Below are positions 3,611-45,453 of a stretch of DNA of 64,000 bases, in pieces. This DNA is from Escherichia phage S143_2, in sequence record MZ189261.1. The stretch is one strand, 5' to 3'. How positions within the stretch are numbered: the first letter of the stretch is position 1; each line of letters starts with the position of its first letter. Below the pieces are notes generated by a model, which worked only from the letters and a program-made list of their open reading frames with translations, did not search any database and had not been told where the DNA came from. The position numbers were made by a program, and so were the translations under genes.

Positions 3611-5299
3611 TTATGAAACAGTCATTACCGTAAATCGTCCAACTTTGCTCATCTGAAGATGTTGTCCATAACGTTGAGGGTCATGGTCTCGATGAGAGAT
3701 AATGAACACATTAGTATTTTGTAAACTTCCAAGAATGGTATCTATAGCCTTAACAGCCTCAGAATCGACAGCACCATCAAAAACCTCATCAAGAATCAGA
3801 GTGTTGATTTTAACACCAGAGACCTTTTCAGCAATATCTCGCCATGTAAACAACAATGCGATATCGATACGTGCCTTTTCACCTTGACTAAATGAAGCAT
3901 AACTAAAATCTTCACGACCACGTGATTTTATAGATTCATTGAATTCTTCGTCAATAGAAAACACGTAATCAGCTTCCATGATTTTAAGATAATAGTTAAT
4001 CTGCTTGTTGAACAGAGGCACATATTTTTTAATGATAGCACCTTTAATACCAGAATCTTTTAACATATCTGTGATAATACCACGATGGTATTTTTCAAGA
4101 ACGATATCAGATTTTGTTTTAATGATTTTATCAAGTTCTTTTTGAAGCAAAGCTATCTCATCAGCATGGTCGATAAATTCCGCCGAGGCTTGTTCTATTG
4201 CAGCTTTAACTTTCTTAGCTTTATCAATAGTGGCAATCATTGCTTGTTTTTTGGTACGAATATCAGATGCAAGGTCCTGTTTAGTCTTAACATTAGCTCT
4301 ATATTCGTCCACTAGGACACTCAGATTATCTCTGTGGCAGGTAAGTTGCTCGAATGAGTGATTACATTCATGAAGCTTATCGGTAATCTTAGAGACAATA
4401 GGATCACCCTGGTGCAACTGTGATGCACAAGTAGGACATGTACCACCATCATGATACATCTTAATAACTTTGTTATATGAGTCAATTTTAGATTTAATCA
4501 AGAATGCTTCTTGTCCGATCTTGTTGAACGCCTCAGTAGGGTCTTCGTCAAGAACGATATTAAGTAGACGCTCGTTAGCTTCTTCGATTTCTGCTTTTAA
4601 TGAACGAGCTTCTTTGGCTAGGTCGTCATACATATTCTGTAGACGCGCTACATTATCACCAGATAATTTCTTTTGACGTTCGATATTCTCGTTATAAATC
4701 TTAATTTGTTGGATAATACCATCTTTCTTGGCATCGAGAACTTGTCCCTGGGAATTAAGTTCTCGAACTTGAGACTTATTGATTTTATCCATTTCAGCGA
4801 GTGTGCCGACTTCTAAAAGGTCTTCGACAAGTTTTCTACGAGCAGGGGTGCTAAGAGCCATGAAAGGGGTATACCCTGCCGTCCCAAGCACAACGATTTG
4901 TTTAAAAGACGCGTATGACATTCCGATGCTACGTTCAAATTCTTCTTGGAAGTCACGACTGCTGGCAGATTCATCAAGACGAACACCGTCAACGGAGATT
5001 TCGAAAATATTGGGCTTTTGGCCACGTTTAATGAAGTATTTTTTACCATCGAATTCCATCCAAAGCTCAACTAAGAGCTCTTTCTTGTTCGTGCTATTAA
5101 TGATTTGCCCTTTCTTAACATCACGAAATGGTTTACCGAAAAGTCCGAAAGTAATGGCTTCTAACATCGTAGATTTACCACCACCATTTTTACCGGTGAT
5201 TAATGTCTTTTGGACTTTATCTAATTGGATATCAATAGGATTCCCACCTACCGACATGATGTTTTGATAACGAACACGATTTAATTTAAATGATTTCAT
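3611..5299 (-). CDS. 46: recombination nuclease ATPase subunit gp46 (Rad50/SbcC-like)
   Basis: 562 aa; Walker A GKNGGGKST; long coiled-coil middle; CxxC hook (CPTC); T4 gp46 is 560 aa. Confidence 0.9.
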   Translation of the reverse strand: MKSFKLNRVRYQNIMSVGGNPIDIQLDKVQKTLITGKNGGGKSTMLEAITFGLFGKPFRDVKKGQIINSTNKKELLVELWMEFDGKKYFIKRGQKPNIFEISVDGVRLDESASSRDFQEEFERSIGMSYASFKQIVVLGTAGYTPFMALSTPARRKLVEDLLEVGTLAEMDKINKSQVRELNSQGQVLDAKKDGIIQQIKIYNENIERQKKLSGDNVARLQNMYDDLAKEARSLKAEIEEANERLLNIVLDEDPTEAFNKIGQEAFLIKSKIDSYNKVIKMYHDGGTCPTCASQLHQGDPIVSKITDKLHECNHSFEQLTCHRDNLSVLVDEYRANVKTKQDLASDIRTKKQAMIATIDKAKKVKAAIEQASAEFIDHADEIALLQKELDKIIKTKSDIVLEKYHRGIITDMLKDSGIKGAIIKKYVPLFNKQINYYLKIMEADYVFSIDEEFNESIKSRGREDFSYASFSQGEKARIDIALLFTWRDIAEKVSGVKINTLILDEVFDGAVDSEAVKAIDTILGSLQNTNVFIISHRDHDPQRYGQHLQMSKVGRFTVMTVS

Positions 5300-26773: not shown

Positions 26774-26976
26774 TATTCTTCTACATGTTGTTTACGACCT
26801 TTCTTATCAATAAAGGTATATTCAACGAATGTTCCGATGTAGTCTTTATCTACATCATGTGGACTATTAATTGGACATTTAGTACGACAAATGCGTTCCC
26901 ATTGACGAATAATTACTGCTTTATTTTTAGGATCAAACGGATGTGGGTAATGCACATTCATAATAATGGTTCCCAA
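26749..26976 (-). CDS. hypothetical protein
   Basis: 75-aa ORF. Confidence 0.4.
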   Translation of the reverse strand: MGTIIMNVHYPHPFDPKNKAVIIRQWERICRTKCPINSPHDVDKDYIGTFVEYTFIDKKGRKQHVEEYCLKVTWL

Positions 26977-27455
26977 TCAACAATCACAATTTCTAGTTTA
27001 GTGGAATATGTATCAAGAATTTCTTCAATGATATCCCAGTTTCCACCACCTATACCTGCACCAATTCTTGGCATATAAATTACAGGCTTTGTTATCTTAT
27101 TTTTTCCGAATTCATTTAATTCTATTATACAATTCGTTAAAGCATAGTACTCAAAATTAGGTCCCGGCTCAAACTGTGTATAAAGATTAAAGCAATAAGC
27201 TTTATGGGTCTTAAAATATTTTTCATAAACCGAATAAGTCCCGAGTTTAGACTCGTCTCCGAATTCGGTTTGAAGTTTATCGGCTTCTAGAATTTTTGGA
27301 TAAGCCTTTGCTAATTGTCCTGCCACACCGGCGCCCATTGTATGAAAACAATTACACCCATGAGCTATATTATTACCTTTAGAAAACAGGGCGACAATAT
27401 CGCCCTTGATATAGTTTTTAATCACTTGCTGCAAGTCCTCTAGTATAAGAGTCAA
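26958..27455 (-). CDS. macro-domain protein (ADP-ribose binding/hydrolase fold)
   Basis: 165 aa; GDIVALFSKGNNIAHGCNC...MGAGVAGQLAKA resembles macro-domain Gly-rich diphosphate-binding loop (compare viral X-domain GGGVAGAL). Confidence 0.55.
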   Translation of the reverse strand: MTLILEDLQQVIKNYIKGDIVALFSKGNNIAHGCNCFHTMGAGVAGQLAKAYPKILEADKLQTEFGDESKLGTYSVYEKYFKTHKAYCFNLYTQFEPGPNFEYYALTNCIIELNEFGKNKITKPVIYMPRIGAGIGGGNWDIIEEILDTYSTKLEIVIVDWEPLL

Positions 27456-28312: not shown

Positions 28313-28771
28313 CTAGATTTTAATCACTGCTTTAGAAGCTTTTCCTGGTAGTCGTTTACTGTTAATAATAGCCATTCTGCATTGAAGAGTCTTCATTTTG
28401 AATGCTGGATTTTCGCGACAAACTGTAAGTCCTAACCAAAGATTTCCATCAGTTATTTCTAAACGGCCTGGACGATATTCGACACCTTCGACAAAATCTT
28501 CATCAACATCTGGACGTGCCGGCATTGATAAAAATTCTGCAACTTCTTTAACATGATTTTTTACTTTACGAAATAATTCAAAAACGTAGTTCTCATCTAT
28601 TTCTCTCTGGATAGCACGATCTAAGAGATGTTGAGAATACTTGATATGAAAGCCTGGTAGTCCAAGAGACTTTGCAGCATCTTTTATACCGGCATTTATT
28701 TTGCGGAACTCCGTTTCAAAGATTCGACGGAGTTTATTACGGCGGATAAAAACGTCAGAATTGATAGTCAT
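28313..28771 (-). CDS. regB: RegB endoribonuclease
   Basis: 152 aa; MTINSDVFIRRNKLRR...KYSQHLLDRAIQREIDENYVFELF...GRLEITDGNLWLG matches T4 RegB. Confidence 0.85.
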   Translation of the reverse strand: MTINSDVFIRRNKLRRIFETEFRKINAGIKDAAKSLGLPGFHIKYSQHLLDRAIQREIDENYVFELFRKVKNHVKEVAEFLSMPARPDVDEDFVEGVEYRPGRLEITDGNLWLGLTVCRENPAFKMKTLQCRMAIINSKRLPGKASKAVIKI

Positions 28772-28779
28772 TTTGATTT

Positions 28780-28828
28780 CTCCTCTAGTTGACAGGTCTA
28801 TAGTAACACAACTAGAGGAGAAGTAAAC
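28780..28828 (-). promoter_or_regulatory. early promoter with 12-bp perfect inverted repeat sequestering regB SD
   Basis: minus strand GTTTAC-ttCTCCTCTAGTTGtgttactatagacctgtCAACTAGAGGAGaaatcaaaATG; arms 28780-28791 and 28809-28820. Confidence 0.6.
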
Positions 28829-28832
28829 TACT

Positions 28833-29048
28833 TTATTGATAAAATGGAGTTAAAGCCCAAGATTCTTTAGATACCATATCGGCGAAATGCCTCATCTCTT
28901 CGATTTGGCGACGACGCTGGTCAGCATAGTCTTCTTCGCCTTCTTCCTTACAATCTTCAAGGTCTTCTTCAAGATACTTTAAGTATTCACTACAAATTTT
29001 GTTGACCTTTTCTTGAAAGTCCAATAACCCAGTAATAGTAGAAGCCAT
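28833..29048 (-). CDS. hypothetical acidic protein
   Basis: 71-aa ORF. Confidence 0.4.
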   Translation of the reverse strand: MASTITGLLDFQEKVNKICSEYLKYLEEDLEDCKEEGEEDYADQRRRQIEEMRHFADMVSKESWALTPFYQ

Positions 29049-29314
29049 TAGTATTTTTCCTCAGGTCGAAATACTGCACGACATGCCCACATGCTGGCTT
29101 CTTTTAGATGTTGCTTAGCATACTTAAGAGCCTGCACTGCATCCATATCTTCTTTGGTTTGTTGCTCTGATTCATTTTCTTTCAAGATATATGCTTCTTC
29201 AATCAGAGCATCAAACATCAATCCAAGACGGACTTCTGCGTCTTTAATAGCGTTCACTTTACTGATTTTATCATCGGTATGTGGCTTGTAGCCTTTGATG
29301 TCTTCAATCGACAT
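29048..29314 (-). CDS. hypothetical protein (89 aa, start at internal ATG)
   Basis: track ORF 29048..29482 overlaps neighbour; MSIEDIKGYKPHTDD... from ATG 29314. Confidence 0.35.
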   Translation of the reverse strand: MSIEDIKGYKPHTDDKISKVNAIKDAEVRLGLMFDALIEEAYILKENESEQQTKEDMDAVQALKYAKQHLKEASMWACRAVFRPEEKY

Positions 29315-29528
29315 AAGGAATTTCCTCATCGGTGGCAAGGTCATATTCGACCAATTGGATAGGCTCATTAATACCATATCCGCGTACAGTGATATCGGTT
29401 GACGGATATTTTCCAGTAATATCACCCGTTCTAAATGCTTCAATGAATGATTGCTCGCCTGAGCAACTAAACCAGGCGGCAAAACATTTTAAAACATCTT
29501 CAGACCCTTCTATAATCAATTTAGCCAT
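29304..29528 (-). CDS. hypothetical protein
   Basis: 74-aa ORF. Confidence 0.4.
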   Translation of the reverse strand: MAKLIIEGSEDVLKCFAAWFSCSGEQSFIEAFRTGDITGKYPSTDITVRGYGINEPIQLVEYDLATDEEIPYVD

Positions 29529-29890
29529 TATAGACTCTCAGTAAAGGTACGAGCTATAACGTCGCGCTGCTGTTCTGGAGTCAGAGAGTTAAAGCGAACT
29601 GCATAACCGGATACACGGATGGTCAGCTGCGGATATTTTTCTGGATGCTTAACTGCATCTTCCAGAATTTCACGACGCAGAACGTTAACGTTCAGGTGTT
29701 GACCACCTTCAATTTTAACTTTAGGTTGATGTTCAATTTCAATTTCACGGGCATTCAAACCGTAGAAAATTTCCGGGTCTACAATAGCGTCTTCTTTAAA
29801 AGTCTTAGAGACGATAATCCGGGCTTGAGTACCGTCTTCAAAATAAATAGTGCCTTTATGTGCACCTTCAAGAATTTGATATGCTTTCAT
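29528..29890 (-). CDS. autonomous glycyl radical cofactor (GrcA/YfiD-like)
   Basis: 120 aa; C-terminal ~60 aa ([60 protein letters not shown]) nearly identical to E. coli GrcA glycyl-radical domain. Confidence 0.85.
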
Positions 29891-30914: not shown

Positions 30915-31244
30915 TTATACTCTAGGCTTTTGAGCTTGTTTGGTATTGGATTCCCATGCGGCTTTGGTAATTTTGTTAGCGGCATAACCAAAGGCACTAG
31001 ATAGAACACCTTTAGAGTTGAATACATCCAATCCAATAAGTACACCGGCTGTGTTAAATTTAGGAGCAAAGTACGCATTAGTTTTAGAAAGAGCTTTTTT
31101 CAATTCAGGGTCTTGAACCAAGCCATCAAAAACGCCTTTACTATTTACTTTATATGTTACTTTGGGATTTTTAGCTTCTTCGATAGCAGCTTTCTGTTCC
31201 GCAGATAATGTAACTTCAGTGATAAACTCTTGATATGTTTTCAT
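30915..31244 (-). CDS. internal protein (CTS-bearing), IPII-like position
   Basis: 109 aa; N-terminal MKTYQEFITE capsid targeting sequence. Confidence 0.6.
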   Translation of the reverse strand: MKTYQEFITEVTLSAEQKAAIEEAKNPKVTYKVNSKGVFDGLVQDPELKKALSKTNAYFAPKFNTAGVLIGLDVFNSKGVLSSAFGYAANKITKAAWESNTKQAQKPRV

Positions 31245-31282: not shown

Positions 31283-31861
31283 TTAATTACCACGGGCTGC
31301 ATTAGCAACGGCATAAGCGTACTGAACATTAGCGTCTTTAAACGTACCTTTAGAGGTATCTATTTCTGCCTTAAAGCCGCCTTTAGCCATAACATCGGCA
31401 AATTCTTTACGGAAGGCCATTGCATCAAGACCTTTCCATGATGATTTATGCTTGGCAAATTCAAGACCTGCGAAGTTGACAGCTTTAGCCAATTTATTAT
31501 CAATGACCCATTTACCGGCTTTAGGCACAAACTTCGGTCCTTTTTGTTTAGAGAACAGTTTTAAATTCCAGCGACGAAGATCACTGTCGGCTTTAACAAA
31601 AGCTGCGTCTAAGTTACTAGCAACAACATCTTCAATATGAGCAAATTTAAGTCCGTCAACTTCAATATTTAGATCGTTACGCCAGCGAAGTCCTTCCCAA
31701 GCGAAGGCTTTAAAATCAGAAGCCTTTGTGGCTAGATATCGTTCAATTGGAGCAGTTTTAGGGTCAAAGCCGTTTCCACCACGATAAGTCCACTCGTCCT
31801 TATTAATGCCTTGAGCTTTTCCTGCAAAGGCCTCGGCGATAAATTCTTTATACGTTTTCAT
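31283..31861 (-). CDS. ipIII: internal protein III-like (CTS-bearing)
   Basis: 192 aa (T4 IPIII 194 aa); N-terminal MKTYKEFIAE. Confidence 0.6.
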   Translation of the reverse strand: MKTYKEFIAEAFAGKAQGINKDEWTYRGGNGFDPKTAPIERYLATKASDFKAFAWEGLRWRNDLNIEVDGLKFAHIEDVVASNLDAAFVKADSDLRRWNLKLFSKQKGPKFVPKAGKWVIDNKLAKAVNFAGLEFAKHKSSWKGLDAMAFRKEFADVMAKGGFKAEIDTSKGTFKDANVQYAYAVANAARGN

Positions 31862-31887: not shown

Positions 31888-32202
31888 TTATTCTTTAGGG
31901 AAGTTTTTAGAGTATGCGTCGTAAAGTTTATTGCCGATGCGACGGAAGACTTTAGCTGCAAAACGGTTTTCAGGGTTTTTAATCATGATTTGCATCATGT
32001 AAGTTCCTGCGTCCGAAAGAGCTTCTTCATAGTACCCATTAATTTCTTTAAGAGTCCTACGTTTACCACCAGGACCATCAACAGTAATTTTCCATTTACC
32101 TGTAGAAGTGCGGCTCGGTGGCTCAACTTGTTCAATCCAAATATAACCACCTTCAACGCGTTGGTTGGCTGATTCTGCAATAAATTCTTTATACGTTTTC
32201 AT
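31888..32202 (-). CDS. internal protein (CTS-bearing)
   Basis: 104 aa; MKTYKEFIAE leader. Confidence 0.6.
   Translation of the reverse strand: MKTYKEFIAESANQRVEGGYIWIEQVEPPSRTSTGKWKITVDGPGGKRRTLKEINGYYEEALSDAGTYMMQIMIKNPENRFAAKVFRRIGNKLYDAYSKNFPKE

Positions 32203-44767: not shown

Positions 44768-45453
<686 letters not shown>

What the first reader, a model, noticed from the sequence alone, without database searches (positions are those of the whole stretch)
28833..29528. Run of three small genes at the T4 vs.3-vs.5 position, including a possible Acb2-like sponge
By synteny (regB upstream, GrcA-like downstream) the 71-, 89- and 74-aa ORFs correspond to T4 vs.3-vs.5. T4 Vs.4 is a cyclic-dinucleotide sponge (Acb2). 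I cannot confirm homology by eye, so this is a positional hypothesis only.
Basis: inference. Interest (0 to 1): 0.45.

Follow-up and report, generated by a model that had tools for sequence, protein, structure and literature searches.

The report
Known Acb2 sponge gene, two neighbours
The middle of the three small genes is an ordinary, already catalogued copy of the phage Acb2/Vs.4 protein that soaks up the bacterial cGAMP alarm signal; its neighbours are a shortened relative of a second known sponge (Vs.3/TadIV-1) and a conserved protein of unknown function (Vs.5).

Summary
Three tightly packed minus-strand genes lie between regB and a GrcA-like gene in an RB69-like (Mosigvirus) T-even phage.

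- **Middle gene (29048-29314, 88 aa):** a clear Vs.4/Acb2 orthologue. It is 64% identical to T4 Vs.4, matches PDB 7UQ2 at E 8e-30 and Pfam Acb2_Tad1_hairpin at E 8.5e-18. The cyclic-dinucleotide pocket residues are intact (Y9, K24, F82). The two cA3-site positions are Q61/Q68, so I expect no trinucleotide binding, as in T4. UniRef already names this exact protein as an Acb2/Tad1 hairpin protein.
- **71-aa gene:** a short-group homologue of T4 Vs.3, published in 2026 as TadIV-1, an N7-cADPR sponge against type IV Thoeris. It lacks the N-terminal loop that forms the pocket, and published short homologues fail to inhibit that system. It is nevertheless under strong purifying selection (dN/dS about 0.06), so its function is open.
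- **74-aa gene:** an intact Vs.5 from a Straboviridae-restricted family with no recognisable fold relatives. T4's annotated 58-aa Vs.5 is a reference-sequence error.

Verdict: interpretation supported, already known, low interest.

The parts
29048..29314 (-). vs.4 / acb2: 88-aa anti-CBASS cyclic-dinucleotide sponge orthologue
   Evidence: 64% identity to T4 Vs.4. PDB 7uq2 E 7.9e-30. Pfam PF24729 E 8.5e-18, above the cut-off. Y9, K24, F82 and P84 are invariant in 25 homologues. The exact protein is named 'Acb2/Tad1 hairpin domain-containing protein' in UniRef.
28833..29048 (-). Short-group vs.3 / TadIV-1 homologue (71 aa): two-helix core only, N-terminal ligand loop absent
   Evidence: 40% identity to the C-terminal 65 aa of T4 Vs.3. 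PDB 9wiw (UPEC07 TadIV-1) E 6.5e-10. Alignment A5 shows the residues equivalent to U07 3-32 are missing. An in-frame stop 5 codons upstream rules out a longer N-terminus. AF2 model has helices 4-36 and 39-60. dN/dS 0.06 against Edwardsiella phage PEi20.
29304..29528 (-). vs.5: 74-aa conserved acidic protein of unknown function, overlapping the vs.4 start by 11 nt
   Evidence: phrog_1986 E 2e-38. tblastn hits in 988 phage records, 983 near full length. 69% identity to resequenced T4 Vs.5. AF2 pLDDT 87, helix 10-33 plus a beta-hairpin. No PDB fold match; viral matches are only its own family. dN/dS 0.14.
29528..29890 (-). vs.6, GrcA-like glycyl-radical cofactor: first gene of the overlapping vs.6-vs.5-vs.4-vs.3 run (context)
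   Evidence: Pfam Gly_radical 1.8e-17. Its stop overlaps the vs.5 start (TAATG). Its 3' half is 96% identical in DNA to E. coli grcA.
28772..28832 (-). vs.3-regB intergenic region: 14-bp hairpin that sequesters the regB Shine-Dalgarno GGAG, with a T4-early-type promoter-like site inside it (marks the end of the run)
   Evidence: RNA fold -21.9 kcal/mol, z -3.75. The same hairpin is present in T4 with a different stem sequence. GTTTAC-17-TACTAT lies at 28827-28800.
28313..28771 (-). regB endoribonuclease (synteny anchor)
   Evidence: Pfam REGB_T4 8.8e-69; phrog_1323.

Best explanation
The run is the vs.5-vs.4-vs.3 segment of the vs.8-regB early region of an RB69-like T-even phage.

**vs.4.** Its middle gene encodes an Acb2 (Vs.4) orthologue. 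By homology with T4 Vs.4 and PaMx33 Acb2, I infer the following mechanism:
- The 88-aa helical-hairpin protein assembles into an interlocked hexamer.
- Each of three dimer-interface pockets is built from the invariant N-terminal segment (Y9 base stacking, K24 phosphate salt bridge) and C-terminal segment (F82, P84).
- Each pocket traps one cyclic dinucleotide, such as 3',3'-cGAMP.
- This keeps the CBASS second messenger away from its effector without degrading it.

It probably does not bind cyclic trinucleotides, because the two cA3-site positions are Q61 and Q68. It should also make the phage vulnerable to decoy-nucleotide guard systems such as Panoptes.

**vs.3.** The downstream, translationally coupled 71-aa gene is a short-group TadIV-1 (Vs.3) homologue. 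It keeps the dimer-forming two-helix core but lacks the basic N-terminal loop that binds N7-cADPR. It is most likely not an anti-type-IV-Thoeris sponge, yet it is maintained by selection for some other role.

**vs.5.** The upstream 74-aa Vs.5 is a conserved Straboviridae-only protein of unknown role.

Shown here: homology, residue conservation, gene organisation and selection. Inferred: oligomer state, ligand binding and in vivo anti-CBASS activity.
For: **Acb2**
- Searches give family, structure-sequence and pairwise matches.
- In alignment A2, residues 1-34 and 66-88 are nearly invariant across 25 T4-like homologues. This includes the equivalents of T4 Y8, K23 and F82. Y8A and F82C abolish function (PMC12657218). 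Y8 and K23 align with PaMx33 Y11 and K26, whose alanine mutants lose cyclic-dinucleotide binding (PMC10312549).
- N- and C-terminal segments are 85-87% identical to Yersinia phage PST, whose Vs.4 is T4-type, against 23% for residues 35-65.
- PaMx33 R67/T74 correspond to T4 D61/T68 and to window Q61/Q68. T4 Acb2 does not bind cA3.
- The 7UQ2 entry holds six chains.
- All 120 listed homologues carry PF24729.
- An Acb1 orthologue is also present in the window, as in T4.

**Vs.3 short form**
- Supported.
- PMC13243611 reports that short (~70 aa) homologues and a delta2-32 truncation fail to inhibit type IV Thoeris.
- The residues shown there to matter are U07 R18, R19, S21, S23, K34, K57 and K60. 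Here they are deleted or replaced: K34->T4, K57->E27, K60->L30. Only E58->E28 and H83->R53 persist.
- Net charge is -9.4 against -2.4 for T4 Vs.3.
- dN/dS is 0.06 with dS about 1.7.

**Operon**
- The junctions overlap: TAATG, an 11-nt overlap, then TAATG.
Against: - No binding, oligomerisation or infection data exist for this allele. I found no paper mentioning Acb2 together with RB69.
- The middle third of the protein (residues 35-65) is essentially unrelated in sequence to T4's (23% identity). Hexamer packing or a second-site specificity could therefore differ.
- Some Acb2 family members bind 3'cADPR instead of cGAMP (PMC12393519), so family membership alone does not fix the ligand.
- For the short Vs.3, the inactivity claim rests on a few tested homologues whose identities I could not check, because the supplements are not held.
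Confidence: 0.88

Rival explanations
1. The Vs.4 homologue is an Acb2-family protein with shifted ligand specificity, for example 3'cADPR, cyclic trinucleotides or a narrowed range that avoids decoy nucleotides. The hypervariable middle third would drive this change.
For: Residues 35-65 share only 23% identity with the T4-type protein, with pN 0.58. Acb2 homologues that bind 3'cADPR and not cGAMP exist. Decoy systems are expected to select for altered specificity.
Against: In every solved Acb2, ligand choice is set at the vertex pocket formed by the N- and C-termini. Those segments are invariant here. The 3'cADPR binder uses extra terminal beta-strands that this 88-aa protein has no room for. 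The cA3-site residues are both non-canonical (Q61, Q68).
Confidence: 0.08
2. The short Vs.3 homologue, Vs.5, or both are unrecognised counter-defence proteins with targets other than N7-cADPR. The vs.6-vs.3 run would then be a multi-gene anti-defence cassette. This is compatible with the main explanation for vs.4.
For: The short Vs.3 is more conserved than its neighbours between genera: 84% amino-acid identity and dN/dS 0.06, against 67% for Vs.4 and 62% for RegB. Vs.5 is found in about 980 phage records, always next to vs.4 and vs.6 in the loci examined. It is translationally coupled to acb2 and has an orphan fold. The TadIV-1 authors themselves suggest that the short group may target another system.
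Against: There is no positive evidence of any target. Both proteins are very acidic (pI 4.1-4.4), which is not what anionic-nucleotide sponges usually look like. T4 Vs.5 did not inhibit type IV Thoeris when tested singly. Small conserved T4 early genes often have host-takeover roles unrelated to defence.
Confidence: 0.3
3. The 71-aa short Vs.3 still works as an N7-cADPR sponge against type IV Thoeris.
For: It shares the helical core with TadIV-1. E58 and H83 have equivalents here, E28 and R53.
Against: The loop containing the required residues 19-32 is absent. An upstream in-frame stop forbids a longer form. K34, K57 and K60, and the alternative-pocket residues R46 and R86, are T, E, L, N and A here. 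Published short homologues and the delta2-32 truncation are inactive.
Confidence: 0.04

Closest known systems
T4 Vs.4 / Acb2 (PDB 7UQ2; Jenson et al. 2023, as cited in PMC10312549 and PMC12657218)
   Same: Same locus and same 88-aa length, with 64% identity. The N-terminal 34 and C-terminal 23 residues are nearly identical, including Y8/K23/F82 (Y9/K24/F82 here). The stop overlaps the vs.3 start by TAATG. The cA3-site arginine is lacking in both.
   Different: Residues 35-65 are about 23% identical. There is an extra Ser2 from a 3-nt insertion at the vs.5/vs.4 overlap. T4 T68 is Q68 here. No biochemical data exist for this allele.
Pseudomonas phage PaMx33 Acb2 (PDB 8H2J, 8IXZ)
   Same: Same Pfam family. 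Y11 and K26 align with Y9 and K24. It has the same helical-hairpin architecture and cyclic-dinucleotide pocket logic.
   Different: The relationship is detectable only with a profile (E 5e-4). PaMx33 R67/T74 bind cA3, whereas the window has Q61/Q68, so I predict no trinucleotide site.
T4 Vs.3 / TadIV-1 and UPEC07 TadIV-1 (PDB 9WIW; PMC13243611)
   Same: Same genomic slot immediately after vs.4. Homologous two-helix core (40-42% identity). Conserved motifs DFQE, Y..YL.ED, DC.EE and QR..Q.
   Different: It belongs to the short (~70 aa) group. The flexible N-terminal loop (U07 residues 3-32) is missing, and the basic residues K34, K57 and K60 are lost. Net charge is -9. The short group was reported unable to inhibit type IV Thoeris.
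T4 Vs.5 (73 aa in resequenced T4 genomes)
   Same: 69% identity over 72 aa. Same position between vs.6 and vs.4.
   Different: The widely used T4 reference annotation (58 aa) is frameshifted by one missing base and aligns only over 18 residues. No function is known for any member.

Membership tests
Acb2 (anti-CBASS 2 / Vs.4; Pfam PF24729 Acb2_Tad1_hairpin) | Significant match to the family profile, above the curated cut-off | tested here: met
   64.7 bits against a cut-off of 27, E 8.5e-18, covering residues 9-84.
Acb2 (anti-CBASS 2 / Vs.4; Pfam PF24729 Acb2_Tad1_hairpin) | Sequence homology to an experimentally characterised, structurally solved member | tested here: met
   7UQ2 (T4 Vs.4) E 7.9e-30, 64% identity. 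A profile reaches PaMx33 Acb2 at E 5e-4.
Acb2 (anti-CBASS 2 / Vs.4; Pfam PF24729 Acb2_Tad1_hairpin) | Cyclic-dinucleotide pocket residues: stacking Tyr (PaMx33 Y11 / T4 Y8), Lys (K26 / K23), C-terminal Phe (T4 F82) | tested here: met
   Y9, K24 and F82 are present and invariant in 25 homologues.
Acb2 (anti-CBASS 2 / Vs.4; Pfam PF24729 Acb2_Tad1_hairpin) | Interlocked homohexamer binding three cyclic dinucleotides | not testable with these tools
   Only monomer prediction is available. Inferred from 64% identity to the hexameric T4 protein (6 chains in 7UQ2).
Acb2 (anti-CBASS 2 / Vs.4; Pfam PF24729 Acb2_Tad1_hairpin) | Binds 3',3'-cGAMP and inhibits CBASS in vivo | not testable with these tools
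   Needs ITC or native gel assays and plaque assays.
Acb2 subgroup with a second, cyclic-trinucleotide site | Arg and Thr at the PaMx33 R67/T74 positions | tested here: not met
   The window has Q61 and Q68. T4 (D61/T68) does not bind cA3.
TadIV-1 (Vs.3) N7-cADPR sponge | Homologous two-helix core | tested here: met
   9wiw E 6.5e-10 and T4 Vs.3 E 9e-12. The AF2 model is a helix-turn-helix, 4-36 and 39-60. The Foldseek PDB search gave only generic hairpins.
TadIV-1 (Vs.3) N7-cADPR sponge | Flexible N-terminal loop carrying the ligand-binding residues (U07 R18, R19, S21, S23; T4 R17, R18), which is required for activity | tested here: not met
   About 30 residues are absent in alignment A5. An in-frame stop lies 5 codons upstream of the ATG. 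The requirement is stated in PMC13243611.
TadIV-1 (Vs.3) N7-cADPR sponge | Helix residues K34 and E58 and the basic patch K57/K60/H83 | tested here: not met
   T4, E28, E27, L30 and R53 respectively. Only two of the five are retained.
TadIV-1 (Vs.3) N7-cADPR sponge | Sequesters N7-cADPR and inhibits type IV Thoeris | not testable with these tools
   The literature reports short homologues as inactive. Which short homologues were tested could not be checked.
Vs.5 family (phrog_1986) | Full-length profile match, with conserved WFS.SGEQ and GYG..EPI..VEY motifs | tested here: met
   phrog_1986 E 2.1e-38 over 1-73. Motifs are conserved in the 43-sequence alignment.

The most novel reading that the evidence does not exclude
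The two neighbours of acb2 may be uncharacterised counter-defence proteins. The short TadIV-1-like protein has lost the N7-cADPR loop yet evolves under stronger constraint than Acb2 or RegB. Vs.5 is an orphan-fold acidic protein translationally coupled to acb2 in about a thousand T4-like phages. Together they would make vs.5-vs.4-vs.3 a three-gene anti-signalling cassette whose other two targets are unknown.
Probability: 0.3. Interest if true: 0.5.

Novelty: already known. Interest (0 to 1): 0.17.

Why it matters
There is little new here. Acb2 is a well-studied sponge, and this exact protein is already labelled as an Acb2/Tad1 hairpin protein in UniRef.

The practical points are these:
- RB69-like phages carry an intact cyclic-dinucleotide pocket together with Acb1. 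They should therefore evade cGAMP-type CBASS and be exposed to Panoptes-type guards.
- The adjacent Vs.3 is the short, loop-less form, so these phages are predicted to lack TadIV-1 protection against type IV Thoeris.
- The strong purifying selection on the short Vs.3, and the unknown role of Vs.5, are small open questions worth a defence-panel screen.

Tried and rejected
- **Vs.5 fold searches.** PDB gave no match with E<1. BFVD returned only uncharacterised members of its own family. afdb50 was unavailable.
- **Exhaustive HMMER search with Vs.5.** Besides small phage proteins, it returned large repeat proteins (cytochrome-c repeats, FG-GAP-like repeats, low-complexity repeats). Their scores are summed over 4-12 short stretches, and I treat them as noise.
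- **Vs.5-Acb2 fusions.** The 156-164-aa Vs.5 homologues are not fusions with Acb2. Their extensions are unrelated in sequence and carry no PF24729.
- **T4 Vs.5 as a real truncation or pseudogene.** Rejected. Only the three records derived from the old sequence lack the base, and resequenced T4 encodes 73 aa.
- **Foldseek of the short Vs.3 model against PDB.** It gave only generic helical hairpins (E about 1). 9WIW does not appear among the matches, so this is uninformative.
- **NCBIfam.** No hits for any of the three proteins.
- **Sigma-70 promoter scan.** Not above shuffled expectation (8 found against 8.8 expected). No promoter can be assigned inside the run.
- **Literature.** Searches for Vs.5 and for Acb2 with RB69 found nothing relevant.
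- **+ strand ORFs in the interval (31-70 aa).** They are antisense to conserved genes and were not pursued.

Full report
**Observation.** The interval 28833-29528 contains three minus-strand ORFs.
- 28833-29048 encodes 71 aa.
- 29048-29314 encodes 88 aa from its ATG.
- 29304-29528 encodes 74 aa.
- The 144-aa ORF listed is a mechanical extension into vs.5 and has no annotated counterpart.

The neighbours are as described. regB (28313-28771) matches Pfam REGB_T4 at 8.8e-69, and a GrcA-like gene (29528-29890) matches Gly_radical at 1.8e-17. All genes are on the minus strand, so the order of transcription is vs.6, vs.5, vs.4, vs.3, regB.

**Source of the window.** The 1.6-kb region is 98-99% identical to RB69 and many other Mosigvirus genomes. 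The RB69 record annotates the same genes as RB69ORF117c, vs.4, vs.5 and vs.6. T4 has vs.3, vs.4, vs.5 and vs.6 in the same order. Each of the three exact proteins is already in public databases on 72-87 contigs. One source is Shigella phage phi25-307, accessions AYD79318 to AYD79320.

**The middle gene is Acb2.**
- It is 64% identical to T4 Vs.4 (E 2e-37).
- It matches the sequence of the T4 Vs.4 crystal structure 7UQ2 at E 7.9e-30.
- It scores 64.7 bits on Pfam PF24729 Acb2_Tad1_hairpin, against a cut-off of 27.
- All 120 listed database relatives carry that domain.
- A profile of 25 of them reaches Pseudomonas phage PaMx33 Acb2 (8H2J/8IXZ) at E 5e-4. In that alignment the two key residues are in register.

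In that 25-sequence alignment, residues 1-34 and 66-88 are almost invariant and residues 35-65 are hypervariable. Against Yersinia phage PST, the three segments are 85%, 23% and 87% identical.

The residues known to form the cyclic-dinucleotide pocket lie in the invariant parts.
- T4 Y8 and F82: the mutations Y8A and F82C abolish function (PMC12657218).
- PaMx33 Y11 and K26, equivalent to T4 Y8 and K23 (PMC10312549).
- They correspond to Y9, K24 and F82 here.

The PaMx33 cA3-site residues R67 and T74 correspond to T4 D61 and T68, and to Q61 and Q68 here. T4 Acb2 does not bind cA3, so trinucleotide binding is not expected. UniRef already names this exact protein 'Acb2/Tad1 hairpin domain-containing protein'.

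**The 71-aa gene is a short Vs.3 (TadIV-1) homologue.**
- It aligns with the C-terminal 65 residues of T4 Vs.3 at 40% identity (E 9e-12).
- It matches PDB 9WIW at E 6.5e-10.
- T4 Vs.3 matches 9WIW end to end.

A 2026 paper (PMC13243611) shows the following.
- T4 Vs.3 is TadIV-1, a dimeric sponge that sequesters N7-cADPR (KD about 216 nM) and blocks type IV Thoeris.
- The pocket is formed by a flexible N-terminal loop plus helix alpha1.
- Homologues fall into a long (~90 aa) and a short (~70 aa) group.
- The short group and a delta2-32 truncation are inactive.

Alignment A5 places the window protein in the short group.
- After 'MA', about 30 residues are missing. These include U07 R18, R19, S21 and S23 (T4 R17, R18).
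- K34, K57 and K60 are T4, E27 and L30 in the window protein.
- The alternative-pocket residues R46 and R86 are N16 and A56.
- Only E58 (E28) and H83 (R53) are retained.
- An in-frame stop five codons upstream excludes a longer product.
- Net charge is -9.4, against -2.4 for T4 Vs.3.
- A single-sequence AF2 model gives the expected two helices, 4-36 and 39-60, with pLDDT 81.

The gene is not decaying. Against the orthologue in Edwardsiella phage PEi20, dS is about 1.7 and dN/dS is 0.06. Amino-acid identity is 84%, compared with 67% for Vs.4 and 62% for RegB. This allele type occurs in 74 phage records.

**The 74-aa gene is Vs.5.**
- It matches phrog_1986 end to end (E 2e-38).
- tblastn finds it in 988 phage records, 983 of them near full length.
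- Against the T4 reference annotation only 18 residues align. The reference sequence lacks one base.
- Only X04567, AF158101 and NC_000866 share that gap. Resequenced T4 genomes encode a 73-aa Vs.5 that is 69% identical to the window protein.
- A 43-sequence alignment gave an AF2 model with pLDDT 87: one long helix (10-33) followed by a beta-hairpin.
- Foldseek found no PDB match with E<1. Among viral models it found only uncharacterised relatives.
- dN/dS against PST is 0.14.
- No literature on its function was found. T4 Vs.5 expressed alone did not inhibit type IV Thoeris.

**Organisation.**
- The vs.6 stop overlaps the vs.5 start (TAATG).
- vs.5 overlaps vs.4 by 11 nt.
- The vs.4 stop overlaps the vs.3 start (TAATG).

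This points to one translationally coupled transcription unit. No promoter can be assigned inside it, because the scan was not above shuffled expectation. A 61-nt spacer with a strong hairpin separates vs.3 from regB.

**Mechanism.**
- Shown here: homology, conservation of the ligand-contacting residues, and gene linkage.
- Inferred from T4 and PaMx33 Acb2: hexamer assembly; three pockets at dimer interfaces that each trap one cyclic dinucleotide by Tyr/Phe stacking and Lys-phosphate contacts; and consequent silencing of CBASS effectors.
- Because Acb2 sequestration of 2',3'-c-di-AMP triggers Panoptes, this phage should be sensitive to that guard system.
- An Acb1 orthologue, 84% identical to T4 57B, lies at 44771-45226. 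The phage therefore has the same dual anti-CBASS equipment as T4.

**Verdict.** The Acb2 assignment is already in public annotation, so this is a known thing. What remains open is modest: the role of the loop-less but strongly conserved Vs.3 homologue, and the role of Vs.5.

Noticed in passing
L002 (T4 NC_000866) 3840-4058; compare window 29304-29528: The T4 reference annotation of Vs.5 (58 aa) results from one missing base. Only X04567, AF158101 and NC_000866 share it. Resequenced T4 genomes encode an intact 73-aa Vs.5.
   Followed up: yes
window 28772-28832 (minus strand): A perfect 14-bp hairpin sequesters the regB Shine-Dalgarno GGAG (dG -21.9 kcal/mol, z -3.75). The same structure exists in T4 with a different stem sequence. 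A T4-early-type promoter-like site, GTTTAC-17-TACTAT, lies inside it. Read-through transcripts would therefore hide the regB ribosome-binding site, and promoter-proximal transcripts would expose it.
   Followed up: partly
window 29528-29710 (3' half of vs.6, minus strand): The 3' 185 nt of the phage GrcA-like gene are 96% identical in DNA to chromosomal grcA in all 5426 complete E. coli genomes. Synonymous divergence of vs.6 between this phage and Yersinia phage PST is 0.28, against 1.6-2.1 for the flanking genes. This suggests recent or repeated exchange with the host gene.
   Followed up: partly
window 44771-45226 (minus strand): An orthologue of T4 57B / Acb1, the cyclic-oligonucleotide phosphodiesterase, at 84% identity over 152 aa. 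The phage carries both Acb1 and Acb2.
   Followed up: partly
window 29120-29212 (codons 35-65 of vs.4): The middle third of Acb2 is hypervariable among T4-like phages, at 23% identity where the termini are 85-87%. Length varies by up to about 17 residues. This could reflect relaxed constraint or diversifying selection on the helical-hairpin tip.
   Followed up: partly
window 30915-31244, 31283-31861, 31888-32202 (minus strand): Three consecutive ORFs begin with MKTY(Q/K)EFI(T/A)E. By my own knowledge this resembles the capsid-targeting leader of T4 internal head proteins. RB69 annotates neighbouring genes as internal head proteins. A canonical T4-early promoter, GTTTAC-18-TATAAT, lies at 32262-32234.
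   Followed up: no
P0137, P0141, P0142 (163-164 aa) and P0177 (156 aa), homologues of window 29304-29528: Some Vs.5 homologues carry an unrelated ~90-aa C-terminal extension. One is fused behind a Vs.7-like N-terminal part. None carries an Acb2 domain.
   Followed up: partly
window 26958-27455 (minus strand): A 165-aa Tk.4 homologue. RB69 and T4 annotate it as a macro-domain (A1pp) phosphatase, which could be relevant to ADP-ribose-based defence signalling.
   Followed up: no
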